From the IMG/VR virus record IMGVR_UViG_3300028912_000018: a DNA stretch of 36,849 bases, one strand, 5' to 3'. The notes beneath the pieces were generated by a model. It was not told where the DNA came from, searched no databases, and saw nothing but the letters and a program-made list of their open reading frames with translations. The translations under genes were made by a program, and so were the position numbers. Positions 1 to 36,849 of the stretch are shown here, piece by piece. Every line of letters begins with the position of its first letter. Within the stretch, counting starts at the first letter, position 1. Source of the DNA: a virus (Duplodnaviria > Heunggongvirae > Uroviricota > Caudoviricetes).

Positions 1-438
1 ATGCTATGGAAGAACGTCGATTTTGAAAACAGGATTATCACCATCGACGCCAGTGTGATGAAGGGACGCAAAATTCATGTGGTCCCGATGTCAGACCAGG
101 TGGTTGAACTTCTCACTACGCTAAGCTCCATCACCAAACCAGTATCAGAGTTTGTTTTTGCCGGGCGCAACGATAAGAAGAAGCCAATCTGCGAGAACGC
201 GGTTCTACTTGTGATCAAACAAATCGGCTATGAGGGTCTGGAAAGCGGTCACGGATTCAGGCATGAATTCAGCACGATTATGAACGAGCACGAATGGCCT
301 GCTGACGCTATTGAAGTGCAACTGGCACATGCCAACGGCGGATCTGTGCGCGGTATTTACAACCATGCTCAGTATCTCGATAAGCGCAGAGAAATGATGC
401 AGTGGTGGGCGGATTGGCTTGATGAGAAGGTAGAGTGA
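1..438 (+). CDS. int: tyrosine integrase, C-terminal fragment (5' end lies outside window)
   Basis: ORF open to window edge; HGFRHEF (H-x-x-R) and RGIYNHAQY catalytic-Tyr region typical of lambda-type tyrosine recombinases. Confidence 0.8.
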   Translation: MLWKNVDFENRIITIDASVMKGRKIHVVPMSDQVVELLTTLSSITKPVSEFVFAGRNDKKKPICENAVLLVIKQIGYEGLESGHGFRHEFSTIMNEHEWPADAIEVQLAHANGGSVRGIYNHAQYLDKRREMMQWWADWLDEKVE

Positions 439-589
439 TCCGCCTTAACAACTATCGAAGAGCACAAAGCCTTGTGTGTCTCATAGGCTATGAAACAATC
501 ATTTTACATGGTTACTTCACTACTTCCGCACAATATGATATCGTTCACAATCTAAAAACATTAATAATTTATCCATTACCGCGGTTAAT

Positions 590-615
590 GCCCGTCGCTT
601 CCAACGGGCTTTTTT
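590..615 (+). terminator. intrinsic terminator downstream of int
   Basis: GCCCGT-loop-ACGGGC hairpin followed by TTTTTT. Confidence 0.5.
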
Positions 616-677
616 GTAAATTATATTTTTATTACCTTATATTAATATTGGTAATATGTCTGCATGATGTTTTATAT

Positions 678-1412
678 TTATTGCGTGAGCTTCGCATGAT
701 AGCTGGAGCATCTCTTGTCATCACTAATTAGCTCCGCTTTATCCGTTCTTGCCCATATTATATTTCTTTTTATTATTTTTGCTGGATTACCGGCTGCTGC
801 ACACATAGATGGCACATCTTTAGTTACAATACTCCCATACCCAATGACAGATCCGCTTCCAACAGATACCCCTTTCATTATAGAGACATTTCTCCCTACC
901 CATACGTAACTAGATATAATGATATCTTTTGCCCAATTAATCCTTTTTTTGCTATGAATATCAAATATAGGATGCCCATCTGATGCACGCAAAATAACAT
1001 CTCTTGCTATCATGCAGTCATGGCCAATTGTAACATTGCACTTATCAGTGACGACTTCAAAACCTGCACCTATTGTCGTTCTTCTACCGATAATAACTTT
1101 TGAACCTTTTGTTGCGACAATATCACCTTTAATCTTACTGTTTTTATGTATTCTTACGTAATTATTATCACCCCTAAATATTACGGTAAGCCATCGACAC
1201 TCAACATCATCTTCTATAATAAGTTTGTTATTGTTTCCATTGAACTGAACTTTATTCTCTTTGCTATTTACAAGATCTCCACATACAAAAATATTACCTG
1301 ATCCATTATCATCAACGGAAAACGAGTCTTGAGTCTTGAGTCTTGAGTCTTGAGTCTTGAGTCTTGAGTCTTGAGTCTTGAGTCTTGAGTCTTGAGTCTT
1401 GAGTCTTGACAT
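678..1412 (-). CDS. neuO: phase-variable hexapeptide-repeat O-acetyltransferase, NeuO-like (polysialic acid O-acetyltransferase)
   Basis: 244-aa ORF; N-terminus MSRLKTQD(SRLKTQD)x3 encoded by the heptanucleotide tract; left-handed beta-helix hexapeptide repeats (IGRRTTIGAGFEV, VTIGHDCMIARDVIL, VWVGRNVSIMKGVSVGSGSVIGYGSIV); sits between tailspike and att/int. Confidence 0.75.
   Translation of the reverse strand: MSRLKTQDSRLKTQDSRLKTQDSRLKTQDSFSVDDNGSGNIFVCGDLVNSKENKVQFNGNNNKLIIEDDVECRWLTVIFRGDNNYVRIHKNSKIKGDIVATKGSKVIIGRRTTIGAGFEVVTDKCNVTIGHDCMIARDVILRASDGHPIFDIHSKKRINWAKDIIISSYVWVGRNVSIMKGVSVGSGSVIGYGSIVTKDVPSMCAAAGNPAKIIKRNIIWARTDKAELISDDKRCSSYHAKLTQ
1324..1407. repeat. simple sequence repeat: 12 tandem copies of GAGTCTT (AAGACTC on the coding strand)
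   Basis: counted directly; 84 nt, in frame, starts 3 nt after the neuO-like start codon. Confidence 0.95.
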
Positions 1413-1428
1413 ATTAGTATCCTACGTT

Positions 1429-1457
1429 ATTTTACCACTAGTTACTTTTCTTGTCAT
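1429..1457 (-). promoter_or_regulatory. putative promoter of the neuO-like gene
   Basis: minus strand -35 ATGACA, 17-nt spacer, -10 TAAAAT; AGGA Shine-Dalgarno 7 nt before ATG. Confidence 0.35.
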
Positions 1458-1565
1458 TAAAAAGCATTTAAATTTTTATATTTAATTTCGTTGACGTCAA
1501 TGTTTTTTGCCAATGTACTTACTTCTTTATGTGAGCAGTTCATATTTTTGACGCCAACGAAACAT

Positions 1566-4500
1566 TTAGTGCTTCCCTTCTATTAAGTCTAACCTAGCTT
1601 TTATTCTTTCTATTTCTCTGCGCTGCCATGCCGCCTCGATATAGAATAAGAGATCAGGTCTGACCCCCCATCTAGATCCTGCTGGCGTTATTTCAACGCG
1701 CTCAATGATGTCTTCCATTACCATCACTGGATTATCATCCTCATCAACAATGATGCTCCCGTCATTATCAGTCAGCGGCATTTCCCTTTGGCCAGTAATG
1801 ACGTCATCATATACTGCGGGATAATCGTCATAGCAAAGAAAGGCATAGCGGCATGTTGTGCTTTCTTCTTCCATGAGTCCGTGAGAAATAAGAACATCAC
1901 GAAGTTGCTGCGCGATTACACCATGATGTATCCTCGCTCCTTCTTCCCCCTTTATAGCGACAGCGTTCAGCCATTTATAAGCGATATACCTGACGTCACC
2001 CCAGGCATCCAGCAATGCTTCGTCAGGAGAGACCGGCTCTGTCTTTAATGTTCCGTCACTGGTAACCACAGGATTGGAGCCAAGATAAACTGTCGAGAAC
2101 CTGTTTCCCGGACCACCAAGAGCATTTACATTATCAAGATAAGGTTTAACATCTCCGTTCTCAAAAAGATGTTCGAGTGCGTTATATACCGCGCGACGTG
2201 GAGTACTGCTTCCGGAACCATGCAACGTTATCATTGCACCATCTGCTGAAGACGTTGTTTCACCTCCGCTAACGATTAATCTCTGAGCGGTAACATCATC
2301 AGACGGTACTTTCTTCGCAATAATGGCGTAATTACCCTCAAGTTTGACTTCCGCGCGAACTTGTCCTGATGTACCTGCATGGACAGTCAGTGACTGGACG
2401 GCAACATCATCTGTGAAATCAACGGGTACAGGAACCGTCCTCACGCCTGACGTCGACATAAAAGTAGGAAGCGTTCTGTTAGGAGTGGCTCCGTAGACAA
2501 AATCCCTTGAAACAAATTCTTCCTGTTTAATTTTCACCCTGAAACAATACAAATCAGCCGGGTGACCATCGTGAACATAAGGATATTTTCTGTTGTTATC
2601 CCCTATGCTCCATGGGTTTAGAAAGTCTTCCCCACCGAAAATGTAGTACAGCCAGTTGTCTTTGATACAAACTGAACCAACACCAACCGCAGAGTTAACT
2701 ATTCCGCCCTGATAAATCTGATCAGTAACATTAACCCACTCTACATTATCCAGACTCCACTCATTGACGTTAACTCTGGTCATAAATGTTCTTGGATAAT
2801 TTCCTGCATAACGGTTATCAGGTTCTCCTCCTTCCCACTCACCAAATGCGCGCTCACTGCCAAAAATAATCAGCTCATCGCCAACTTTGGCAAAAGGAAG
2901 GTTTGAGTGATGAACATTATTTGGGAAGCGAAGAGAATTCCATGATGTACCTAAATCAGAGCTTCTGTGCAATGAACTACCGGGTTGAGTACTTAATGTC
3001 CCCCTGGTCGTCAGATACAGAATGCCATCATAATATTTTACACATGGCTCAGATGCATTCGCCTCATATTCTGCAGGTATGCGTCTGCGAACAAAGCTAC
3101 CAGGAGAACCGAAAGCATCAGAGAAATAGAGTATCCCAAGCTCGCGTGGACCAATATCACCATTATGGTAGCCAACAGCAAAACTGTTATCGCTAATCGT
3201 CGCAAAACTGTGAATCTCAGTAACAGGAGTGCTTCCGTCAACAAAAGAAGGAATAGTTCCAAGACTGGTTTTTCTCCATGGTGACGAGTGAAATGATGTA
3301 CCAAAACTCCAGTATCTACCCTCGTTATTCTGATCCACATCCTGGGTATTTTGCGTCGTAACTGTAAAAGTATTTTTATCAATAACAGTAGTCACCGTCA
3401 TATTCCCGGTAACACCTGTAACACCAGAGTTTGAGAAGTTGACAAAATCACCAGCAAATAATCCGTGATCAGTAATGCGAATATAAGCGACTTGCTGATT
3501 TGCTGCTTTCGTTATACCACCATAAACGCGAAGGCTGCGACTCATTGGGCGATCCCACAACTCTGCAACCTGCAGTTTATTTCCTCTCACGGTCCGCGTC
3601 TCAATTACAGCAAAAAGGCGATTTCTGACAACCCCCATACTCATGCAGTGATAGTTAACTGTGGGATAGTTTTCATGTAAATCTGTAAGCCATTCCGGCG
3701 TTGTCCAGGTCTTCCCGTCATCTCCTGAGCGAACCCATGCAACATGGAGGTTATTTACACCATGGCGGTCTCCAGCCATAAAAGGCGCATAGATGACATT
3801 GTCATATACAAACGTTTTATCCTGCGTCCAGGCGTTGTACCACGGTGTATCTGTAATTTTAAATAACTCTCCCTGGATAAAATCTTCAGAAGCATAAAAA
3901 AGAGGCTGGCCCGGTATTCTCTCAAATAAAAAACGAGCATTTTTAAATCGACTGACATCCGGAAGAGTTGATACTTTAAAAGTAAGCCCTAATCCGTCAA
4001 TTTTATAACCTGGAGATGAGGCTTCAAGGCACGCGCTTATTGCAGTGGAATCGTCATTTATACCATCACCAACAGCTCCAAAATCTTTGGGGCTAATAGC
4101 ATCACGCATTTTATCCTGGAACGTTCGGTACACAGCCCCAGAACCATACTGAATAAACCAACCAAAACCACCAACAACCCCGGCGATTGCAGCATCGACA
4201 TAATTACGCATTGAGCGATTATTTACAGCGTCCTGCTCAAATGATGGATCTGCAAGGTTAGAAATTTTGTTTTGCTTTGCATCGTAATATTTTGCAAGCA
4301 AAGATGGTTTCATCAATGCACGTCTGAACCACCCAAAACATTGCTGGATCAGCATCGTCAGGTAGTCAAAGGCATCTTCATGCACTTCGGGGAAAAATTT
4401 TCCCTGATTGCGAAGGTCTGTGTCCTGCACTACATCAAGCACACGATCTATCGTAATTCGCCATCCAGTAGCAAGCGGAGACGGAAGAACCACAGAACCG

Positions 4501-4688
4501 CCACTATAAGTGCCCGCCCCAGTTACCGTATAACCGGTATCCAGGACCAATTCTGTTACGTTCCCGTTCAGGTCAGACACCTGAACAACCAGGTCTGATT
4601 TTCTGAAAATTCGAAAAGTATACGGAAACGATGTCGTAACGCCGTTACCGGTGTATTCGTTGTGGTCAACTTCGGTTGAGACCGTCAT
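1566..4688 (-). CDS. tailspike, endosialidase-type with C-terminal intramolecular chaperone (peptidase S74-like) domain
   Basis: 1040 aa; two sialidase Asp-box motifs (SGDDGKTW, SSDLGTSW); C-terminal segment with SDGTLK serine-lysine motif and conserved chaperone-domain tail; GGAG SD 7 nt before ATG. Confidence 0.7.
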   Translation of the reverse strand: MTVSTEVDHNEYTGNGVTTSFPYTFRIFRKSDLVVQVSDLNGNVTELVLDTGYTVTGAGTYSGGSVVLPSPLATGWRITIDRVLDVVQDTDLRNQGKFFPEVHEDAFDYLTMLIQQCFGWFRRALMKPSLLAKYYDAKQNKISNLADPSFEQDAVNNRSMRNYVDAAIAGVVGGFGWFIQYGSGAVYRTFQDKMRDAISPKDFGAVGDGINDDSTAISACLEASSPGYKIDGLGLTFKVSTLPDVSRFKNARFLFERIPGQPLFYASEDFIQGELFKITDTPWYNAWTQDKTFVYDNVIYAPFMAGDRHGVNNLHVAWVRSGDDGKTWTTPEWLTDLHENYPTVNYHCMSMGVVRNRLFAVIETRTVRGNKLQVAELWDRPMSRSLRVYGGITKAANQQVAYIRITDHGLFAGDFVNFSNSGVTGVTGNMTVTTVIDKNTFTVTTQNTQDVDQNNEGRYWSFGTSFHSSPWRKTSLGTIPSFVDGSTPVTEIHSFATISDNSFAVGYHNGDIGPRELGILYFSDAFGSPGSFVRRRIPAEYEANASEPCVKYYDGILYLTTRGTLSTQPGSSLHRSSDLGTSWNSLRFPNNVHHSNLPFAKVGDELIIFGSERAFGEWEGGEPDNRYAGNYPRTFMTRVNVNEWSLDNVEWVNVTDQIYQGGIVNSAVGVGSVCIKDNWLYYIFGGEDFLNPWSIGDNNRKYPYVHDGHPADLYCFRVKIKQEEFVSRDFVYGATPNRTLPTFMSTSGVRTVPVPVDFTDDVAVQSLTVHAGTSGQVRAEVKLEGNYAIIAKKVPSDDVTAQRLIVSGGETTSSADGAMITLHGSGSSTPRRAVYNALEHLFENGDVKPYLDNVNALGGPGNRFSTVYLGSNPVVTSDGTLKTEPVSPDEALLDAWGDVRYIAYKWLNAVAIKGEEGARIHHGVIAQQLRDVLISHGLMEEESTTCRYAFLCYDDYPAVYDDVITGQREMPLTDNDGSIIVDEDDNPVMVMEDIIERVEITPAGSRWGVRPDLLFYIEAAWQRREIERIKARLDLIEGKH

Positions 4689-4791
4689 GTTAAATCTCCA
4701 GATAGTCGCAGCACCCGTTGCGCCGCATATCTGGTTATTCTATTACCTGAAAAACCATATATGGATAAAAAGACTATAAATACCAATAGAT

Positions 4792-4808
4792 ATTACCTTT
4801 CGGGTAAT
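4792..4808. promoter_or_regulatory. operator-like 17-bp palindrome ATTACC-TTTCG-GGTAAT
   Basis: perfect inverted repeat; member of a dispersed motif family. Confidence 0.55.
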
Positions 4809-4844
4809 TTGCAAAACGTGCTGGATAGCAAACAAATTATTTGT

Positions 4845-4864
4845 TACTGTATAAACATACAGTT
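4845..4864. promoter_or_regulatory. LexA (SOS) box TACTGTATAAACATACAGTT
   Basis: CTGT-N8-ACAG with AT-rich spacer; 20 nt upstream of the 4884 start codon. Confidence 0.7.
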
Positions 4865-4883
4865 ATTGCATGGAGAAGATAAG

Positions 4884-5141
4884 ATGCAGCAGTATCACTA
4901 TCCACTGGAAGACGGATTTACCGAAAGGATTCACACGCCGGGAGGCGTCAGGTCACTGGTGGAGGGATCGCACTTGATGAAATTACTCCGGGATCTCGAT
5001 AAGGATGGATTTAATGTCGATGGCCCACTTGCCGAACTGACTGCACTGATTAACTACGTCACCAGCTCACAGATGTCTATGCAGGATCTGCAAACACATC
5101 TCGACTATTGTGCCGAACAATTACGAAAACAAACCAGATAA
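4884..5141 (+). CDS. small antirepressor-like protein (stand-alone paralog of the Ant C-terminal domain)
   Basis: 85 aa; GGAG SD 8 nt upstream; roughly 40-45% identity by eye to the C-terminal 75 aa of the 5459-6115 product. Confidence 0.6.
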   Translation: MQQYHYPLEDGFTERIHTPGGVRSLVEGSHLMKLLRDLDKDGFNVDGPLAELTALINYVTSSQMSMQDLQTHLDYCAEQLRKQTR

Positions 5142-5144
5142 GGT

Positions 5145-5188
5145 TTGCAATTACCAAATGGAGTGCTTATATTTACCTTTGCGGTAAA
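5145..5188 (+). promoter_or_regulatory. sigma70-like promoter overlapping operator TTTACC-TTTGC-GGTAAA
   Basis: -35 TTGCAA (5145-5150), 17-nt spacer, -10 TATATT (5168-5173); operator 5172-5188. Confidence 0.5.
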
Positions 5189-5300
5189 TTTACATCGCAC
5201 TCCTCTTGTGCCATAGTAATCGGGCACTGGCAAAATCCAGTGCCGGGATTGGTCTCCCGGATTACTAAGTGGCGCATACCACGCCAGACGTGGTTTTTTT
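5189..5300 (+). ncRNA. candidate small structured RNA or attenuated leader upstream of ant
   Basis: no credible ORF; 8-bp stem hairpin (5223-5244), second hairpin with loop TTGGTC, intrinsic terminator CCACG-loop-CGTGG plus T7 at 5279-5300. Confidence 0.3.
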
Positions 5301-5458
5301 ATGCGTATAGCACAGTCATGCCAGAATTATGGTGGGCTGAATGGGGGTCCGAAAGGACGCCGGTACCACTTAGGCCGGTAAGACCAACTCCGTTCAGTTC
5401 ACCACCATCTGATTGGTCTCAGCGGTGGTGATGTAATTCGCTAAGTGGAGACGCCATC

Positions 5459-6115
5459 ATGAACGCTCAACTCATCCCCGTATTCAACGGCACTATATCT
5501 AACGAAACAGCCCTACTTTGTAATGCCCGCGATCTGCACGCTTTTTTAGGTGTTAAAAAGGTGTTTGCAGCATGGATTACAAATCGCATATCAGAATACG
5601 AATTCATTGAAAATCAAGACTATATTTTGCTTTCCAATTTGGGAAAGCAAACATCTGGTAGAGGCGGCCACAACCGCAAAGAGTACCACCTCACCCTTGA
5701 TACAGCCAAAGAGCTGGCGATGGTCGAGCGTAACGAAAAAGGTCGCCAGGTGCGACGCTACTTCATTGAATGCGAGAAACGTTTAAGACAACAAGAAACA
5801 AAAGTGGAGAAGGTCTTGTCAGGCTTCATGCCCGCCATTATGGAGGCGATCAAGCTGGAAGACAAAAAAGAATACAGCGCCCCACTGAAGCCCGGCTACC
5901 GTAGCCTGATTCATTCGCCGTCTGGTGTTCTCGGCCTGACGGAGAACTCACTGCTGATGAATCTGCTGAACAAGTTACAGGAAGACGGGCACGATGTATC
6001 GGGCGCGGCAGCGGAGCTGACCACCATGTTCTGCTACATCGTCGGTGTGAGCAAATGCCTGCGTGATATCCAGACGCACGCGGAGTACATCAACGACAAG
6101 GCAGGGTTCTTCTGA
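5459..6115 (+). CDS. ant: antirepressor (AntA-type N-terminal domain plus C-terminal domain)
   Basis: 218 aa; N-terminal [35 protein letters not shown] resembles the AntA antirepressor domain; GGAG SD. Confidence 0.7.
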
Positions 6116-6157
6116 CGGCGGCGGCACAGGGACGTGCCTTTAAATAATTCTGTACAG

Positions 6158-6202
6158 ATTGCAGACTGTGGGTGAATAGCGTACTATTACCTTAAAGGTA
6201 AA
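6158..6202 (+). promoter_or_regulatory. promoter with overlapping operator ATTACC-TTAAA-GGTAAA
   Basis: -35 TTGCAG, 17-nt spacer, -10 TACTAT; operator 6186-6202 abuts the AGGAGG SD. Confidence 0.45.
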
Positions 6203-6213
6203 GGAGGCGCGAT

Positions 6214-6381
6214 ATGACAGCGTTGAAAAATCGTACTCAGCACAATGAACAAGCCAAGCAATGCTGGGATGTCATTGGAAAAGTTATGCTTGGCCGCGCA
6301 AGCAAAGAGCGCGACAAGGATATGGTTTACCAGACAGGAACATCTTTCAGCGACTTCAAGGCGGCATTTCGCTCCAAATAG
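6214..6381 (+). CDS. small hypothetical protein (55 aa)
   Basis: ATG with AGGAGG SD; below the ORF-track size cutoff; translated by hand. Confidence 0.4.
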   Translation: MTALKNRTQHNEQAKQCWDVIGKVMLGRASKERDKDMVYQTGTSFSDFKAAFRSK

Positions 6382-6401
6382 AAGCACATCAGGAGTTTTC
6401 C

Positions 6402-6842
6402 TTGAAGTTTAACATTAGAATATCTAATAGTTTTCTACATGGGGAAAGCAACACCCCTTTCGCTGTAGACGGACCTTTCCTTACTGATGATGAAATAAAA
6501 ATCATACAAAGTTTTTTAGAGGATGTTGCCAATGGAAGGGCGCTTGTTGGAAAAAACAAGCCCTCGTGGGTTGATGATAACCATGATAAAATTCCCGGCT
6601 CAGACAATTATGAGCAAGAGAATTATTGGCATTATCATTGTGGGCCAACATGGTATCCAAACACATTTAAGAATTATACCATTAACTTAAATTTCAACCC
6701 TGGCGGAAGGCATTCTAATGAATGCATTCATTATGCAAAAAATGATAATGAAATTGTCATTGTTGGATTTTCAAGAGAACACATACCTTTCCTTTCATCA
6801 GATGGAAACAACAATCCGCTTTTTAATGATGAAGAAGAATAG
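6402..6842 (+). CDS. hypothetical protein, AT-rich moron gene (TTG start assumed)
   Basis: no in-frame ATG after the upstream stop; TTG 6 nt after AGGAG; AT-rich codons; terminator follows. Confidence 0.45.
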   Translation: MKFNIRISNSFLHGESNTPFAVDGPFLTDDEIKIIQSFLEDVANGRALVGKNKPSWVDDNHDKIPGSDNYEQENYWHYHCGPTWYPNTFKNYTINLNFNPGGRHSNECIHYAKNDNEIVIVGFSREHIPFLSSDGNNNPLFNDEEE

Positions 6843-7695: not shown

Positions 7696-10245
7696 TTATT
7701 TACCTAGCATGAACTGCGATGGTGGGATCAGAAAGTCGTTCCCCTGCTCACGCTCAACACGGCGCTGATAACGCTCAAGAGAGCCTGGGTCAAGGGCATC
7801 TTGTATCCGGTTCAATATTAAACCATTCATCGCCGTACGAAGCCAGAACACGTTGAGGAATGGCGTATTGTCAAGTGCCGTGCGATACCAGTCACCCAAA
7901 TCAGCATCCCCTCTCGTGGTCTGCTGGAGCAGCGTGATAATGCTGTCAGCGTTCGATGCTGCTGGCCCCATTAGCGACGTAACCGGCCCGGCCCCCATGC
8001 GGTTGACCTCACCAAACATGAAGTCACCCAAGATGCCAAGACCGCCCCCCTGAGATGCGGCTGCGAGAAACGTCTTGGCATCTGCCGGGCGTGGTGTTTG
8101 CCCTTTCAGCATGAGTTTTGACTGCATGGAGATATAACCAAACATAGTCGCCCAGACAAAGAGGTTTGCAGCACCAAGGAAAGCCCCCTTCCCGTTACGT
8201 AGCAGCGCATTCGTCAGCGATCCGGTTTTCGACTCACCAAGCCCAGCAGGAATATAACCACGCCCGAATACTTCGCGTCCTAGTACGTTCTGCATGAAGC
8301 TTGCAGTGAACGATTTGTACTGACCAGCGAATCGTATTGCTTCCCCAGCCACCGTTCCTGGCACCGTGCCCATCTTCATAAACGCCTGCGTGCGATCGCC
8401 AGGCTCTGACATGGCGATATTCAGACGGTCAAGGATGTAGCCGCGCAACTGCCCTTCCAATTGATCGCGTGCGTCAGCGATAGCGCGCTGCGTTGGTTTG
8501 ATCCCCTTACTCTCTACATAACCGGCAATCACTTCGTCAGGCACGCCGCGGATGCCGCTGGTCGTCATGAACTTACGACCTTCGCTATCGGCCATGTCCA
8601 TGTTGCGAAAAATTTCCCACTCACGTTCGCCAATACCGTGCAGATCCAGCACGCGTCGCAGGTCTTCCGGTAGCCGCGCATGAGACTGGTCAGCATTCTT
8701 TGCAAGCCAGTTGGTTATCATCATGGCGTTGCTGTTGCGACCGCTCTCGGTCCAGAAGTTCATGAGGTTGTACTTAAAGAAAAGCTGCTGCGCGCGACCA
8801 AGCTTTCCATTCAGCGTGTCATCACCAGATATGCGCCGGATGATTTCCTGCGTCATGGAGTCGGAATAAACTCCGATAGAGGAAAGGATCTCTTTCTGCT
8901 CCGCGCTGTTGTAACGCGTGAAGCGGCCTCTCATAGCACCAAGCAACGCCTGCATAAAATTCTGCCCTTGGTAGCGCATCTCGGTAGCGGCGATAGGCAC
9001 GTCGTTAAACGATGAGATTACCGCGCCACCAAGTTGGCTCATACGCAACCAGCCGCGTACAGCCGCCGACGCATTGGCCCAGCCTACGCTGCCAGGAATA
9101 TTTAGCGAGCCGTCAACCTGCGGCATTACGGTACGGTTAATGCGACGCACCTTCGTCATGTAGTCAGCCAACGCTGCCGGTCTTCCGGATTTGCTGATAT
9201 CTTCAGCAATGGCGTCCGTCAGGTACTTAAACATGTTCTGTGGGTTAGTGCCCAGTACGCGCATCATGCCCGTTGTGCGGGCAGCGCTGTTTAAGCCACC
9301 AAACAGCGCTTCTCGCAGGCTGCCGGTGCCGAATTGCTGGTTGTACTCGTGCCACGAGATACCATCTTTGAAGTGCAAAATTCGCTCTTGGCTGGCGCGT
9401 TTAGCTGCGTTCGCCGATCCCTTAAAGCCATTCATCCAATCGGGCTTTTCAGATGTAAGATGCACGCCGGAAGCCAGCCCGTTATAAATGTTACGCATGA
9501 ACTGCTCGCGGTCAGCCACGCCGTCAAAAGTGCGCTCATCAAGGCGCGGGAGAATAGCATTTCGCCATGCTTCATAACCTGCGGCGCGGATCTTCATGAT
9601 GTCGTGTGACTGGCGCACTATATAGCCCGGCTCTTTGCGTATCCATGCCCCGGCGCGGTTCTCATCAATGCGCGCAGTTTCCTGCCATTTCATGATGATT
9701 TGTGCAGCGCTTACGGATTGCTTTGTCATACCGTCAGTTGACTGCCCGCGCCCTATGCGCCACATTGCATCGGCAATTTCCCGGTCATTGCTGCCGCTGG
9801 CGATGAATTGCACCAGCCCGGCACGGTCAAAATCGTAGTTGATACCGGAATGATACTTGCCGCGCAGTTGCGCCACCTCCGAAGATACCGACCGGCGGGC
9901 GCCGGTACGCGCATCGTTGCGGCCAACCAGCATTGCTTCAAGCCCGATATCCGGGCGGTCTTTCCAGATAGTACGAAGCTCTCTAAGTCGTTGTGCGGCA
10001 ATACGGGCGTCGATTGCCTTATTGCGAGCCTCAATCTGTTTTGCCAGCATATCGGCATTGCTCAGTTCTTCCGCTGCGCGCATCGCGGCCTCTTCCAGAG
10101 ACAGCGCCTCATTGGTCGCCAGAATTCGCCTAGTGGTGTCGTTCATGTCACGCACCAGCGACTCCATCTCATCGGAAGAAAGCTCGCGACCAGCGGCAGC
10201 ATTTACACTGCGCTCGCACTGCGTCAAAAATTCGTTTGCTGCCAT
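7696..10245 (-). CDS. large internal virion (core/ejection) protein
   Basis: 849 aa; ATGA start-stop overlap with upstream gene; position in operon. Confidence 0.65.
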   Translation of the reverse strand: MAANEFLTQCERSVNAAAGRELSSDEMESLVRDMNDTTRRILATNEALSLEEAAMRAAEELSNADMLAKQIEARNKAIDARIAAQRLRELRTIWKDRPDIGLEAMLVGRNDARTGARRSVSSEVAQLRGKYHSGINYDFDRAGLVQFIASGSNDREIADAMWRIGRGQSTDGMTKQSVSAAQIIMKWQETARIDENRAGAWIRKEPGYIVRQSHDIMKIRAAGYEAWRNAILPRLDERTFDGVADREQFMRNIYNGLASGVHLTSEKPDWMNGFKGSANAAKRASQERILHFKDGISWHEYNQQFGTGSLREALFGGLNSAARTTGMMRVLGTNPQNMFKYLTDAIAEDISKSGRPAALADYMTKVRRINRTVMPQVDGSLNIPGSVGWANASAAVRGWLRMSQLGGAVISSFNDVPIAATEMRYQGQNFMQALLGAMRGRFTRYNSAEQKEILSSIGVYSDSMTQEIIRRISGDDTLNGKLGRAQQLFFKYNLMNFWTESGRNSNAMMITNWLAKNADQSHARLPEDLRRVLDLHGIGEREWEIFRNMDMADSEGRKFMTTSGIRGVPDEVIAGYVESKGIKPTQRAIADARDQLEGQLRGYILDRLNIAMSEPGDRTQAFMKMGTVPGTVAGEAIRFAGQYKSFTASFMQNVLGREVFGRGYIPAGLGESKTGSLTNALLRNGKGAFLGAANLFVWATMFGYISMQSKLMLKGQTPRPADAKTFLAAASQGGGLGILGDFMFGEVNRMGAGPVTSLMGPAASNADSIITLLQQTTRGDADLGDWYRTALDNTPFLNVFWLRTAMNGLILNRIQDALDPGSLERYQRRVEREQGNDFLIPPSQFMLGK

Positions 10246-24172: not shown

Positions 24173-24249
24173 GTGGCATTAGCTCAGTCGGACAGAGCAA
24201 CCGCCTTCTAAGCGGTTGGTCGCAGGTTCGAATCCTGCATGCCACGCCA
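24173..24249 (+). tRNA. tRNA-Arg (anticodon UCU), with encoded CCA
   Basis: cloverleaf by hand: acceptor GTGGCAT/ATGCCAC, D GCTC/GAGC, anticodon stem ACCGC/GCGGT, loop CTTCTAA, T arm GCAGG-TTCGAAT-CCTGC. Confidence 0.85.
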
Positions 24250-27291: not shown

Positions 27292-27629
27292 ACTATTAAT
27301 TTCGTTTCATGCCAGCCTTTGGTCACCCAGCATTGCGAGTCACCATTACACGGGCATGAATTAACTGGAACTCTCTCGCCGCACTTACCGCAACGTTTTC
27401 TGCTGATCGATTTTATACGCCCGCGCACGCGTGCATCATCCTGGCGGATCAGTAACGCTATATACTCACCAAATTCGTAAGGTGCACGCCCGGGGCGACG
27501 CGTGGCACAGTTACGCTCCAGCATTTCAATTTCCTGAGCATCAAGCACAATTTCCAGCTTACGCACACCAGATGCAGCTTGTCTGGCTCTCTGAGCGGCT
27601 TTGCGCTCTGCTGCTGATTTAGCCATCAA
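27288..27629 (-). CDS. hypothetical protein with C-terminal Cys-rich zinc-ribbon-like motif
   Basis: 113 aa; basic N-terminus; CGKCGERVPVNSCPCNGDSQC. Confidence 0.45.
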   Translation of the reverse strand: MMAKSAAERKAAQRARQAASGVRKLEIVLDAQEIEMLERNCATRRPGRAPYEFGEYIALLIRQDDARVRGRIKSISRKRCGKCGERVPVNSCPCNGDSQCWVTKGWHETKLIV

Positions 27630-27900
27630 TATTCACCTTTATCGCGAACACCTTTACCGGTTTATCTCCGAAGTGCGGATGTGTGATTGTCTTGATTTCA
27701 TACCCTTCATACGGGACGTCTATTCTGCGGCTGGAATCGTCACGCTTCGGATATCCCTTTGTGATAATCAGGCGGTCATACTCGCGGAACATAATTCGCT
27801 TATTCCAGTAGTCATTACACAGGCGATACTCTTCCGTTTTCTCCCCGCGAATCATGGCATCGAAGTATTCACCTTTAACGGCAAGTTGCAGGTTAGCCAC
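27619..27900 (-). CDS. ASCH/PUA-like (DUF3850-like) protein
   Basis: 93 aa; EYFDAMIRGEKTEEYR pattern; GTG start with AGGAGG SD. Confidence 0.5.
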   Translation of the reverse strand: MANLQLAVKGEYFDAMIRGEKTEEYRLCNDYWNKRIMFREYDRLIITKGYPKRDDSSRRIDVPYEGYEIKTITHPHFGDKPVKVFAIKVNIDG

Positions 27901-28088
27901 GACCTTCCTCCTTTGGCTTGTGAATTTGTATCGTCATGCCGCTTTGAGTGGTGACTACAATGACAGAACCAGGCTGAAGGCTATACTGACAATCCACTGT
28001 CCACTCCTGTAAGCCATATAAAACCAGATGAGCAAAACCTGAAGGAAGGCTATCCAGTCAATAATCGTATATTTCGCGAAGGAGACCA

Positions 28089-28661
28089 TCAATTAACCTC
28101 CTGCGGCGGTTCCGGTAGAGGCATCCAGTACAAGGCGTTCCCTAACCACGATAAAGTGCCGTCGCTCAACTCCACGTATTCCCCTTGTACCTGTCCTGCC
28201 ATATACTCGCCGTGCTTTGAATAAATTAAAATCCAATCATCTTGAGCGGGCATTCGCTCACTACAGCTTATCCAACCATCCGGAGTTACCGGATAGTTGC
28301 CCGACAGCTCGTTCAACTTGTAAGTTTGGCTTACAGGTTCGGCTTCCAGTTCTGCAATGCGCTTCTCTGCAGCTTCCAGCTCAACACGCAGCTTCCCTAC
28401 CGTTAGCGCAATATCCTCGTTCTCCTGGTCGCGGCGTTTGATGTATTGCTGGTTTCTTTCCCGTTCATCCAGCAGTGCCAGCACGGTTTCTGGTCCGGTC
28501 AGAAATTTGAAGGCGTTGAGCGCATCAATATCCACACCGTAATCTTTAAGTTCCTGTTCACTTAACAAATCATCATCAACTGGCAACATTAACAGGCGAT
28601 CCATTGCCGGAATTGCACGCTCTGCCTCCTCACGCAGTGCCTGATAGTCAATCTTGCTCAC
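28089..28661 (-). CDS. Ead/Ea22-like early protein with DUF551-like C-terminus
   Basis: 190 aa; N-terminal MSKIDYQALREEAERA; C-terminal WISCSERMP motif. Confidence 0.55.
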   Translation of the reverse strand: MSKIDYQALREEAERAIPAMDRLLMLPVDDDLLSEQELKDYGVDIDALNAFKFLTGPETVLALLDERERNQQYIKRRDQENEDIALTVGKLRVELEAAEKRIAELEAEPVSQTYKLNELSGNYPVTPDGWISCSERMPAQDDWILIYSKHGEYMAGQVQGEYVELSDGTLSWLGNALYWMPLPEPPQEVN

Positions 28662-29359
28662 TGGTTGCCTCCTTTGCGAAGCTGGGCAGCAAAGTCAACT
28701 AACCACTCAGTCATTTCAACCTTCCCTACCAGGTCTGAACCAGGGTGCATACAGCAATCACTCTGCGCCGCTTTGAAATCCTTATACTCATATTCTTGGG
28801 CCACCAGATTTTTTGCAGCTTCTATAGCAGCATCCACGCCCTGCGCCCGCACTTCAGCCAGGCATTTGCGAAACTCGGAAACGTACTGTTCGACGCTCAT
28901 TCCCCAGCTAAGTGGACATTCATTGAATGTTTCGCCTTCGTGCTCTTCATCAGGTAGCTCTTTGGTAAAGAACTCACGTTCAATGGCGTGGAGTGTGTCA
29001 GCAAAACGACGTAAGTTACTCAAACCTGTCGTAATGGAGAATTCAGGAGCATCACATCCGACGCCCATCTGCTGATAAACGGCGGTTTTGAAGGCCTTCA
29101 GCCCCGCATTCTCCGCCGCCAACGCCGAAAACTTCTCGTGTGCCAACTTAACAGCCGCATCAGCCTGCTTAATTGACTCAATCGCTTTCTGCTGGTCTTC
29201 GGCCAGCGCATTAGCACGCACCAGTTGCACTTCCAGTTGCGTTGCCAAATCGCTGATCAGCTTTGCCACACTGCGCATATCAACGGCACCACATTCTGCT
29301 TTCAGTTCCGAAGCCATCTCATGCCCGGCGGAAACTAACCCTTTGATATTACTTTCCAT
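28658..29359 (-). CDS. hypothetical early protein (coiled-coil, Ea22-like?)
   Basis: 233 aa; overlapping start/stop with neighbour. Confidence 0.45.
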   Translation of the reverse strand: MESNIKGLVSAGHEMASELKAECGAVDMRSVAKLISDLATQLEVQLVRANALAEDQQKAIESIKQADAAVKLAHEKFSALAAENAGLKAFKTAVYQQMGVGCDAPEFSITTGLSNLRRFADTLHAIEREFFTKELPDEEHEGETFNECPLSWGMSVEQYVSEFRKCLAEVRAQGVDAAIEAAKNLVAQEYEYKDFKAAQSDCCMHPGSDLVGKVEMTEWLVDFAAQLRKGGNQ

Positions 29360-35748: not shown

Positions 35749-36015
35749 ATGAATAAGGTTTCAATGCGCAGTCCGTCAAAGATTGTCGCCGTTACTCCTG
35801 CGGCGATAGAGATCGAAAAACGCGCGATTGAAAGAGAGAAAAAAGGGCAATTCCGCATTGCCGCTCACCTTTGGCTTCAGTGTATGGATGTTGCTTCTGG
35901 TGATGTTGAACGTGCAAGGATCGCGGTTCGCAGGGACCAATGTATCACAAAAGGTAACGGCCTTCGCCGTGGCGACTATAGCGGCATAGGATGTTGCGGG
36001 GTGGTTTATGACTAA
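35749..36015 (+). CDS. PerC-like small regulator (start uncertain, 35749 or 35764)
   Basis: pattern EKKGQFRIAAHLWLQCMDV...ARIAVRRDQC resembles PerC-family activators. Confidence 0.4.
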   Translation: MNKVSMRSPSKIVAVTPAAIEIEKRAIEREKKGQFRIAAHLWLQCMDVASGDVERARIAVRRDQCITKGNGLRRGDYSGIGCCGVVYD

Positions 36016-36658
36016 GAAATACACACTAATCTATGCAGATCCACCCTGGGTATACCGGGACAAAGCCGCAGATGGTAATCGCGGTGCCGGTTTTAAATAT
36101 CCGGTTATGAGTGTGCTGGATATCTGCCGCCTTCCTGTGTGGGATTTGGCCGATGAAAACTGTCTGTTGGCCATGTGGTGGGTGCCAACACAACCACTCG
36201 AAGCACTAAAAGCTGTTGAAGCCTGGGGATTCCGTCTGATGACGATGAAGGGCTTCACGTGGATAAAATGTGGTAGTCGACAACCAGATAAACTGGTTAT
36301 GGGTATGGGACACATGACTCGCGCCAATAGTGAAGATTGCCTGTTTGCGGTAAAGGGAAAACTACCTACGCGCATTAATGCAGGGATCGTTCAGTCATTT
36401 ATCGCACCGCGGCTTGAGCATTCAAGAAAGCCAGATGTCGTTCGTGAAAAACTTGTGCAATTGTTAGGCGATGTTTCTCGCATTGAACTGTTCGCCCGCC
36501 AGTCGTCTCATGGTTTCGATGTTTGGGGTAATCAGTGCGAAGACCCGGCAGTGCAACTACACCCTGGATACGCGTTGGATATTGCCAGATTAACAAATGC
36601 ATTCAGCAATTCTCCGCTGTCACCAACAGACAACCAGGGGCGGGAGCGTGCTGCATGA
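36008..36658 (+). CDS. MT-A70-family N6-adenine DNA methyltransferase (orphan)
   Basis: 216 aa; catalytic motif in IYADPPW. Confidence 0.75.
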   Translation: MTKKYTLIYADPPWVYRDKAADGNRGAGFKYPVMSVLDICRLPVWDLADENCLLAMWWVPTQPLEALKAVEAWGFRLMTMKGFTWIKCGSRQPDKLVMGMGHMTRANSEDCLFAVKGKLPTRINAGIVQSFIAPRLEHSRKPDVVREKLVQLLGDVSRIELFARQSSHGFDVWGNQCEDPAVQLHPGYALDIARLTNAFSNSPLSPTDNQGRERAA

Positions 36659-36849
36659 ACAGGGCATCACCAGCAGATTTAAGAAAATGCCTTGAAACTG
36701 CAAACATGCTTGCACACAGCGGGATCAGGTTTGTTCCAATTCCCGCTGTCACTGATGCTGAATTTGCAACACTGTCAGCAATATTCGAAAACAAAATTGA
36801 ATCACTGGCAGCAGAAGCAGAGATGGAAGAAAATCAGCAGAACTATTAA
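36655..36849 (+). CDS. small hypothetical protein; stop codon is the last 3 nt of the window
   Basis: 64 aa from ATG 36655 (ATGA overlap with methyltransferase stop). Confidence 0.4.
   Translation: MNRASPADLRKCLETANMLAHSGIRFVPIPAVTDAEFATLSAIFENKIESLAAEAEMEENQQNY

What the first reader, a model, noticed from the sequence alone, without database searches (positions are those of the whole stretch)
1324..1412. Twelve-copy heptanucleotide contingency tract in the 5' coding region of a neuO-like O-acetyltransferase
Seen directly: 12 perfect tandem AAGACTC units begin 3 nt after the start codon and encode 4 SRLKTQD heptads. Twelve copies (84 nt) keep the frame; any copy number not divisible by 3 would shift the frame and truncate the protein. 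The same unit, position and hexapeptide-acyltransferase body are described for neuO, the phase-variable polysialic acid O-acetyltransferase of E. coli K1 prophage CUS-3. The gene has its own promoter and SD.
Basis: partly seen in the sequence, partly recalled or inferred. Interest (0 to 1): 0.7.

Follow-up and report, generated by a model that had tools for sequence, protein, structure and literature searches.

The report
Known neuO phase-variation repeat, 12 copies
This is the already well-studied on/off switch (a 7-base repeat) at the start of neuO, the prophage gene that acetylates the E. coli K1 capsule; here it has 12 copies and is switched on, so the finding is correct but not new.

Summary
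Twelve perfect AAGACTC units lie on the minus strand at 1407→1324, 2 nt (not 3) after the ATG at 1412-1410, inside a 244-aa ORF (678-1412, minus strand). The protein is 242/244 identical to crystallised NeuO (PDB 3JQY). The DNA is 99.5-100% identical to the int–neuO–endosialidase end of prophage CUS-3, where the tract is annotated as the poly(psi) domain. Copy number varies widely elsewhere: 12-53 in 59 complete E. coli genomes and 3-32 in viral and metagenome contigs. In silico, only multiples of three give full-length protein. Published experiments document slipped-strand ON/OFF switching, activity that rises with heptad number, and protection from K1 phage. The 12-copy allele ("neuO+12") is a common natural ON allele.

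One thing is unusual. Only window 1-3990 is CUS-3-like. From about 3990 onward the backbone is a phiV10/ε15-like (Uetakevirus) K1 prophage, joined by a clean crossover inside the shared endosialidase gene. I found this join in no other genome or contig searched. It may be a real recombinant or an assembly chimera, and I could not tell which.

The parts
1324..1407 (-). Poly-psi VNTR: 12 perfect AAGACTC units encoding four RLKTQDS (SRLKTQD) heptads
   Evidence: TRF array 1324-1409, period 7, 100% match. Regex count 12.0. Annotated as the poly(psi) domain in CUS-3.
1408..1412 (-). ATG start codon (1412-1410) plus 'TC', which is the partial 13th unit. Codon 2 is TCA (Ser) here and TTA (Leu) in CUS-3/RS218.
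   Evidence: Sequence. ATGTC versus ATGTT polymorphism among loci.
1420..1423 (-). Shine-Dalgarno core AGGA, 7 nt before the ATG
   Evidence: Read directly from the sequence.
1429..1500 (-). Two sigma-70 promoter-like sites. ATGACA-17-TG-n-TAAAAT (1457-1429) scores 10/12, but its predicted start falls on the SD. TTGACG-17-AAAAAT (1500-1472) scores 9/12.
   Evidence: Consensus scan, not above shuffled background. The literature reports a neuO promoter region and DsdC-dependent transcription (PMC9659370). Which site is used is not shown.
678..1412 (-). neuO CDS, 244 aa, phase ON (12 copies = 4 heptads)
   Evidence: ORF. 242/244 identical to PDB 3JQY. Pfam Hexapep PF00132. The exact protein is found in 95 blocks of the public assembly collection.
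678..1323 (-). Left-handed beta-helix catalytic body of NeuO, retaining R73, K95, R111, M134, R137, H147, W171, R174, R222, K233 and R234
   Evidence: Residue check against residues named in PMC3046976.
1566..4688 (-). Endosialidase tailspike, 1040 aa, a hybrid. The C-terminal and catalytic part (1566 to about 2800) is CUS-3-type. The N-terminal particle-binding part (3991-4688) and sites 3909 and 3960 are phiV10-like-type.
   Evidence: Pfam endosialidase domains. Homology breakpoints. Diagnostic SNP map.
1..438 (+). C-terminal 145 codons of the CUS-3/IntS-type (argW) integrase; the window starts at an in-frame ATG
   Evidence: Pfam Phage_integrase. Matches CUS-3 912-1349. Full-length 385-aa int sits next to tRNA-Arg in GPEC505-623.

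Best explanation
The tract is the poly-psi VNTR of neuO, the prophage-borne, acetyl-CoA-dependent O-acetyltransferase that modifies O7/O9 of the alpha-2,8 polysialic acid K1 capsule of E. coli. During replication the 7-nt units misalign by slipped-strand mispairing and are gained or lost, usually one at a time. Because 7 is not divisible by 3, only copy numbers that are multiples of three keep the downstream left-handed beta-helix enzyme in frame (ON). All other numbers stop translation after 28-66 residues (OFF). In ON alleles every three units add one RLKTQDS heptad to a disordered, basic N-terminal tail, and catalytic efficiency rises with heptad number, so the tract is both a switch and a dial. 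This window carries the 12-copy, four-heptad ON allele. Acetylating the capsule alters the receptor that K1 phage endosialidases cut, which explains why the gene sits next to the prophage's own endosialidase tailspike gene. It also changes interactions with host immunity. Shown here: sequence identity, frame logic, copy-number polymorphism and gene neighbourhood. Taken from the literature: the slippage mechanism, enzyme activity, the dial effect and the phenotypes.
For: - **Repeat:** a perfect 12-unit array.
- **Protein identity:** 242/244 identical to crystallised NeuO, with Hexapep LbH and all named active-site and basic-platform residues present.
- **DNA identity:** 99.5-100% identical to CUS-3 and phiv205-1, with the CUS-3 annotation 'poly(psi) domain'.
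- **Frame logic:** only multiples of 3 give 237-265 aa; other copy numbers give 28-66 aa.
- **Polymorphism in complete genomes:** 178 of 5426 complete E. coli genomes carry the locus. The top 59 usable rows span 12-53 copies, and 23/59 are in frame. My inferred value for MS7163 is 21, matching the published Sanger/long-read value.
- **Polymorphism in other contigs:** direct counts of 3-32 copies.
- **Literature:** VNTR 2 nt after the start codon, 2-93 copies, ON only at multiples of 3, linear rise of catalytic efficiency with heptads, natural allele neuO+12 (PMC3046976). 38 to 39 copies gave a 3% to 44% rise in O-acetylation (PMC8653822). Fragment analysis found 93% 21-copy cells with 20- and 22-copy minorities, and protection from K1 phage and neutrophils (PMC13001214). 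DsdC-dependent transcription and phage defence (PMC9659370).
Against: No result contradicts it. Three caveats apply.
- The in-frame fraction in complete genomes (23/59; binomial p=0.41 against 1/3) is no different from a neutral random walk. Genome snapshots therefore show no selection for either state.
- The promoter is not demonstrated by sequence.
- Switching in the source strain itself, and activity of this exact allele in this unusual genomic context, were not and cannot be tested here.
Confidence: 0.97

Rival explanations
1. The tract is a selectively neutral microsatellite in a dispensable prophage cargo gene. Copy number drifts, and the ON/OFF states have no adaptive role.
For: The in-frame fraction is 23/59 in complete genomes (de-duplicated 22/54) and 5/20 in viral and metagenome contigs. 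Both are indistinguishable from the 1/3 expected by chance. The published figure is 65.6% OFF in 64 genomes.
Against: The enzyme body stays 98-100% identical and intact downstream of OFF tracts in dozens of genomes. Experiments show phenotypes for ON versus OFF or deletion strains: phage resistance, neutrophil survival and serum sensitivity. A fraction near 1/3 is also what rapid reversible switching predicts.
Confidence: 0.03
2. The copy number of 12, and/or the placement of neuO next to a phiV10-like backbone, is an assembly artefact (repeat collapse, or a chimeric join across the roughly 2.4-kb endosialidase repeat) and not the true state of the source genome.
For: - **No other instance:** none of 5426 complete E. 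coli genomes, 27 neuO loci, 80 V10-type tailspike loci or 11 near-identical (99-100%) metagenome neuO matches carries the join. The exact hybrid tailspike protein is not on record.
- **Clean hybrid:** it combines two common haplotypes and has no private SNPs.
- **Co-residence:** many strains carry both prophages.
- **Assembly breaks:** eight IMG/VR contigs end inside this gene.
- **Non-viable deletion:** a simple deletion between the two prophages would remove about 170 kb including dapA and hda.
Against: For the copy number: the 12-copy allele encoding this identical protein occurs in 3 of the 59 usable complete-genome rows and in many draft assemblies, and 84 nt is spannable by short reads. 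For the join: exchange of tailspike modules between phage backbones is common, and a third backbone carries an endosialidase plus a neuO orthologue. Homologous Campbell-type insertion of a V10-like phage into a resident CUS-3 endosialidase gene would give exactly this structure and would be viable. This rival concerns the context only. It does not change what the repeat is.
Confidence: 0.55

Closest known systems
neuO of E. coli K1 prophage CUS-3 (Deszo et al. 2005 as cited in PMC3046976; GenBank CP000711; PDB 3JQY)
   Same: The same gene. The protein is 242/244 identical. The AAGACTC unit, its position 2 nt after the ATG, and the neighbours (int on one side, endosialidase tailspike on the other) are all the same. 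The 12-copy allele is the natural 'neuO+12' whose four-heptad protein was crystallised (expressed from a repeat-free synthetic gene).
   Different: There are 12 copies (ON) rather than 19 (OFF) as in RS218 CUS-3. Codon 2 is Ser (ATGTC) rather than Leu (ATGTT). Residue 41 is Ile rather than Val. Beyond position 3990 the flanking phage backbone is not P22-like CUS-3.
OatWY, sialate O-acetyltransferase of Neisseria meningitidis W-135/Y (PDB 2WLC)
   Same: A left-handed beta-helix hexapeptide acyltransferase acting on sialic-acid capsule. [quoted passage not shown]
   Different: It is chromosomal and encoded in the capsule locus, has no N-terminal heptad tail and no heptanucleotide VNTR, and is only distantly related in sequence.
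Repeat-less NeuO orthologues (IMGVR_UViG_3300011706_000037, locus L028; Atlantibacter sp. MAG, locus L112)
   Same: 85-86% amino-acid identity over the whole enzyme body. In L028 the gene also lies directly downstream of an endosialidase tailspike.
   Different: They have no AAGACTC tract at all: a GTG start is followed by 7 residues and then the body. They are therefore presumably constitutive, and they sit in a different phage backbone or a non-phage context.
phiV10/epsilon15-like (Uetakevirus) K1 temperate phages such as vB_EcoP_ZX5 and the guaA-yfgI prophages of ExPEC
   Same: Window 3991-36849 is 97-99% identical to these. The tailspike N-terminus, structural genes, tRNA-Arg and early region are shared.
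   Different: In those phages the tailspike is followed by holins, a GH19 endolysin, DUF2514, attP and a guaA-specific integrase. In the window those genes are replaced by neuO plus a CUS-3-type integrase fragment.

Membership tests
NeuO (K1 polysialic acid O-acetyltransferase contingency locus) | Near-identity to experimentally characterised NeuO | tested here: met
   242/244 identical over full length to PDB 3JQY, E 4.2e-161.
NeuO (K1 polysialic acid O-acetyltransferase contingency locus) | Hexapeptide-repeat left-handed beta-helix acyltransferase body with the published catalytic and substrate-binding residues | tested here: met
   Pfam PF00132 E 8e-11. M134, R137, H147 and W171 plus the basic platform residues are all present at the published numbering.
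NeuO (K1 polysialic acid O-acetyltransferase contingency locus) | 5' VNTR of the unit AAGACTC beginning 2 nt after the start codon | tested here: met
   ATG-TC-(AAGACTC)12, as described in PMC3046976.
NeuO (K1 polysialic acid O-acetyltransferase contingency locus) | Full-length translation only when the copy number is a multiple of three | tested here: met
   In-silico alleles of 8-21 copies: 9, 12, 15, 18 and 21 give 237-265 aa; all others give 28-66 aa.
NeuO (K1 polysialic acid O-acetyltransferase contingency locus) | Copy number polymorphic among isolates | tested here: met
   12-53 copies in 59 complete genomes. Values of 3, 5, 7, 8, 9, 11, 12, 13, 18, 19 and 32 by direct count in fetched loci.
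NeuO (K1 polysialic acid O-acetyltransferase contingency locus) | Located between the prophage integrase and an endosialidase tailspike gene | tested here: met
   int fragment 1-438 (+), neuO 678-1412 (-), endosialidase 1566-4688 (-). CUS-3 has the same order.
NeuO (K1 polysialic acid O-acetyltransferase contingency locus) | Acetyl-CoA-dependent O-acetylation of polysialic acid, and measurable ON/OFF switching in culture | not testable with these tools
   Known only from the literature for essentially identical alleles.
Prophage CUS-3 (P22-like, Lederbergvirus) | P22-like backbone: tailspike with a P22 head-binding N-terminus, P22-type ejection proteins, coat, portal and lambdoid early region colinear with CP000711 | tested here: not met
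   Only window 1-3990 and 27626-28861 match CUS-3; 5226 of 36849 nt are covered. The rest matches phiV10-like phages. All 27 other neuO loci switch to a P22-type sequence at 3990.
Simple-sequence contingency locus (slipped-strand translational phase variation) | Perfect short tandem repeat inside an ORF, unit length not divisible by 3, repeat-length polymorphism among close relatives with otherwise identical flanks | tested here: met
   7-nt unit, 100% perfect. Flanks are 99.5-100% identical while copy number ranges from 12 to 53.

The most novel reading that the evidence does not exclude
The int–neuO–endosialidase(C-terminal) module of CUS-3 has been joined, by homologous recombination inside the shared endosialidase gene (crossover between about 2801 and 3908), to a phiV10/epsilon15-like (Uetakevirus) K1 prophage. 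One route would be Campbell-type insertion of a V10-like phage into a resident CUS-3. If so, neuO is carried on, or embedded in, a second and unrelated podovirus backbone. This architecture was absent from every other genome and contig I searched.
Probability: 0.3. Interest if true: 0.35.

Novelty: already known. Interest (0 to 1): 0.12.

Why it matters
neuO is a classic example of a mobile contingency locus. A phage-borne repeat lets K1 E. coli, which causes neonatal meningitis and urosepsis, flip capsule O-acetylation on and off. That changes susceptibility to K1 phages, neutrophils and serum, and also antigenicity. It has been characterised genetically, biochemically and structurally since 2005 and surveyed across thousands of genomes in 2026, so re-finding it adds nothing beyond correct annotation of this window (12 copies, phase ON).

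The hybrid backbone could add something only if it is real. It would then show that the shared endosialidase gene acts as a recombination bridge, moving the neuO switch between unrelated K1 prophages.

Tried and rejected
- **Exact hybrid tailspike:** I looked up the 1040-aa protein in public assemblies and it is not on record.
- **Second instance of the neuO + V10-backbone join:** none was found in complete E. coli genomes, GenBank phages, IMG/VR by NeuO, IMG/VR by the V10-type tailspike N-terminus, GTDB species representatives or metagenomes.
- **Chimera of one strain's two prophages:** I tested GPEC505-623, which has a 12-copy neuO and a V10-like K1 prophage. The window differs from both copies (11 and 46 mismatches), so it is not that strain.
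- **Circular permutation of a phage genome:** rejected. The 5' 720 nt of int are absent from the right end of the window, and such a circle would lack lysis genes and an intact integrase.
- **Odd span in strain 729_270514_x_12:** the 141 extra nt are not a multiple of 7. This comes from a few garbled units in the middle of the tract, probably a long-read error, and is not a different repeat unit.
- **PADLOC defence models:** no hit for NeuO.
- **Deszo et al. 2005 (PMC555961):** not held, so no mapped transcription start could be checked.
- **Promoter claim:** the scan gives sites no more frequent than in shuffled sequence, so I rejected it as evidence.

Full report
**Observation**

The window contains one outstanding tandem array. 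It spans 1324-1409, with period 7, 12.3 copies, 100% matches and no indels. Nothing else in the 36.8 kb exceeds 3.5 copies.

On the minus strand the sequence reads AGGA-TACTAAT-ATG-TC-(AAGACTC)12-GTTTTCCGTTGATG. A direct count gives exactly 12 units. The array lies at the start of a 244-aa ORF on the minus strand, 678-1412, whose product begins M-(SRLKTQD)4-SFSVDDNGSG.

- The gene is on the minus strand.
- The first full unit starts 2 nt after the ATG, not 3.
- The published heptad register is RLKTQDS.

**Identity**

The protein is 242/244 identical over its full length to PDB 3JQY, 'Polysialic acid O-acetyltransferase' (E 4e-161). The next hit is OatWY of Neisseria meningitidis.

Pfam finds the hexapeptide-repeat domain. 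It also finds a complete endosialidase tailspike in the upstream gene (1566-4688, minus strand) and a tyrosine-integrase C-terminus at 1-438. All residues that the structure paper names for catalysis and polysialic acid binding are present at the same numbering.

The DNA of 600-1620 is 100% identical to Escherichia phage phiv205-1 and 99.5% identical to Enterobacteria phage CUS-3. The CUS-3 record annotates the tract as 'neuO, poly(psi) domain; contains 19 copies of heptanucleotide repeat AAGACTC'. This is neuO itself.

**Frame logic and polymorphism**

I replaced the tract in silico with 8-21 units. Alleles with 9, 12, 15, 18 and 21 units give a full-length protein of 237-265 aa. All others give truncated peptides of 28-66 aa.

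The locus is present in 178 of 5426 complete E. coli genomes, always on the chromosome. Both ends of my 1021-nt query align in the listed rows, so the span in each record gives the copy number.
- 59 usable rows give 12-53 copies, with 20 the most frequent.
- 23 of the 59 are in frame, which is no different from one third (p=0.41).
- The method is validated by MS7163: I infer 21 copies, the value reported from Sanger and long-read data.

Direct counts in fetched loci agree:

| Source | Copies |
|---|---|
| CUS-3 | 19 |
| phiv205-1 | 18 |
| IMG/VR contigs | 8, 8, 9, 11, 11, 12, 13, 13, 18, 32 |
| Metagenome contigs | 3, 5, 7, 8, 8, 8, 12, 13, 13, 13 |

The exact 244-aa, 12-copy protein occurs in 95 blocks of the public assembly collection. 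In all ten places inspected it sits in a classical CUS-3 next to argW.

**Mechanism**

Steps shown here:
- The tract is perfect.
- Its unit length is not divisible by 3.
- It lies inside the ORF.
- Its length differs among otherwise 99.5-100% identical loci.
- Only multiples of three keep the frame.

Steps taken from the literature:
- Slipped-strand mispairing changes copy number, mostly by ±1. ON is restricted to multiples of three, 2-93 copies occur in nature, and each three units encode one RLKTQDS heptad.
- The heptad tail is dispensable for activity, but catalytic efficiency rises linearly with heptad number. The tail is disordered in the crystal.
- A natural 'neuO+12' allele exists and was the starting point for the crystallised four-heptad protein, which had to be expressed from a synthetic gene without nucleotide repeats because protein from the natural VNTR-containing allele gave no crystals (PMC3046976).
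- A 38 to 39 copy change raised capsule O-acetylation from 3% to 44% (PMC8653822).
- A culture of MS7163 was 93% 21-copy, with 20- and 22-copy minorities.
- O-acetylation protects against K1 phage and neutrophils but sensitises to serum (PMC13001214).
- Transcription depends on DsdC, and NeuO protects against K1 phage (PMC9659370).

Inference: the gene is a lysogenic-conversion cargo gene. It modifies the receptor that the prophage's own endosialidase tailspike recognises, which explains why the two genes are linked.

**Promoter and SD**

AGGA lies 7 nt upstream of the ATG. Two sigma-70-like sites lie upstream on the minus strand, at 1457-1429 (10/12, extended -10) and 1500-1472 (9/12). Such sites are no more frequent here than in shuffled sequence. 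The better-scoring one would also start the transcript on the SD itself. 'Own promoter' is plausible and consistent with the literature, but the sequence does not demonstrate it.

**Context: the one unexpected result**

Only window 1-3990 is CUS-3-like, apart from a short accessory-gene block at 27626-28861. From about 3990/4074 to the end, the window is 97-99% identical to two groups:
- phiV10/epsilon15-like podoviruses (phiv142-3, phiV10, TL-2011b, vB_EcoP_ZX5);
- the K1 prophages that sit between yfgI and guaA in many ExPEC strains.

In those prophages homology with the window starts at 1598, and the tailspike is followed by holins, a GH19 endolysin and DUF2514. At the other end, a guaA-specific integrase lies 3 nt after the position where the window stops.

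I compared 23 CUS-type and 21 V10-type endosialidase copies.
- The window is CUS-type at 1604, 1611 and 1632, with 0 mismatches to one CUS-type copy over 1598-2800.
- It is V10-type at 3909 and 3960, with 0 mismatches to several V10-type copies over 3401-3990.
- It has no private SNPs.

So the window is a clean hybrid, with the crossover between about 2801 and 3908.

I found no second example of the join:
- no complete E. coli genome covers at least 80% of window 1-6500;
- 27 neuO loci all switch to a P22-type sequence at 3990;
- none of 80 V10-type tailspike loci carries neuO;
- no metagenome neuO contig with tailspike flank matches the window beyond 3990;
- the hybrid tailspike protein is not on record.

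Many strains carry both prophages about 170 kb apart in direct orientation, with dapA and hda in between. A simple deletion between them would therefore be lethal. Several IMG/VR contigs break inside this gene, which shows that it confounds assemblers.

The join could be an assembly chimera. It could also be a real recombinant, for example homologous Campbell-type insertion of a V10-like phage into a resident CUS-3, which predicts exactly this left junction. I cannot decide between these without the source reads. This uncertainty does not affect the identification of neuO or its repeat.

**Comparison and novelty**

The finding is a correct rediscovery of a locus known since 2005. Its structure has been solved, and population surveys have covered thousands of genomes. 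It meets every defining feature of the NeuO contingency locus that can be tested in silico. The window as a whole fails membership of prophage CUS-3.

Two minor points may not be in the literature I could read:
- Repeat-less NeuO orthologues exist at 85-86% identity. One lies downstream of an endosialidase in a third phage backbone, and one lies in an Atlantibacter MAG. This suggests the VNTR is a lineage-specific addition.
- Interrupted or degenerate alleles exist.

**Verdict**

Observation confirmed, interpretation supported, already known, low interest (0.12). The most novel reading still open is that neuO is carried on a Uetakevirus-type backbone through recombination in the endosialidase gene. 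I give that a probability of about 0.3 and modest interest if true.

Noticed in passing
window 1-3990 versus 3991-36849 (crossover within about 2801-3908): The window is a mosaic. The CUS-3 int–neuO–endosialidase(C-terminal) module is joined to a phiV10/epsilon15-like (Uetakevirus) K1 prophage backbone by a clean crossover inside the shared endosialidase gene. I found no other genome or contig with this join, so it is either a real recombinant or an assembly chimera.
   Followed up: yes
window positions 1 and 36849: Both ends fall exactly on gene boundaries. Position 1 is an in-frame ATG at about codon 241 of the CUS-3-type integrase. Position 36849 is the stop codon of a DUF1382 gene that in reference prophages is followed 3 nt later by the V10-type integrase and guaA. 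The window therefore looks like a trimmed provirus call. It contains no complete integrase and no lysis cassette.
   Followed up: partly
L028 9977-10648 (IMGVR_UViG_3300011706_000037); L112 9977-10648 (Atlantibacter sp. MAG NZ_DAMBQK010000002.1): These are repeat-less NeuO orthologues: 223 aa, 85-86% identical to the enzyme body, with a GTG start and no AAGACTC tract. In L028 the gene lies directly downstream of a 989-aa endosialidase that has a third type of N-terminus (Tail_spike_N TSP1/Gp66), after a GpJ-like protein. In the Atlantibacter MAG it sits among non-phage genes. This suggests the VNTR is a later, lineage-specific addition.
   Followed up: partly
L018 about 9890-10000 (IMGVR_UViG_2537562173_000011): This neuO allele has 15 units, with variant units (AAGCCTC, AAGTCTC) interspersed so that a 42-nt super-repeat forms. 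Slippage in that register would always stay in frame, so this may be a partly stabilised ON allele.
   Followed up: no
L021 about 9897-10000 (IMGVR_UViG_3300007747_000060): This allele has 13 units, and the 12 nt between the SD and the repeat (TACTAATATGTC, including the start codon) are missing. It is either a null allele or a metagenome assembly artefact.
   Followed up: no
L111 (E. coli 729_270514_x_12, NZ_CP160121.1 3289045-3290206): The tract is 12 + 17 perfect units separated by garbled units (AAGATCTCGAGACTCAAGTTGC), and RefSeq annotates neuO there as a pseudogene fragment. A strain sharing the '729_' name prefix, 729_021014_1_4, has 19 copies. This is probably a long-read consensus error inside the repeat.
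   Followed up: partly
window 5224-5300 and 5325-5409 (+), upstream of ORF 5459-6115: Rfam finds isrK (67.7 bits) and C4 antisense RNA (61.2 bits) immediately upstream of the antirepressor-like gene. This is a P1/P7-type c4–ant immunity module in the phiV10-like backbone.
   Followed up: no
window 24173-24249 (+): A phage-borne tRNA-Arg (anticodon TCT) lies between the portal and terminase regions, as in related phiV10-like prophages.
   Followed up: no
window 36008-36658 (+): An MT-A70-family / Type II DNA methyltransferase (PADLOC MTase_II, E 1e-76) lies near the right end of the window, with no adjacent restriction gene noted.
   Followed up: no
window 1408-1409; loci L001-L027: There is a codon-2 polymorphism: ATGTC (Ser2, as in the window and phiv205-1) versus ATGTT (Leu2, as in CUS-3/RS218 and PDB 3JQY). 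The TC variant extends the repeat by a partial unit.
   Followed up: partly
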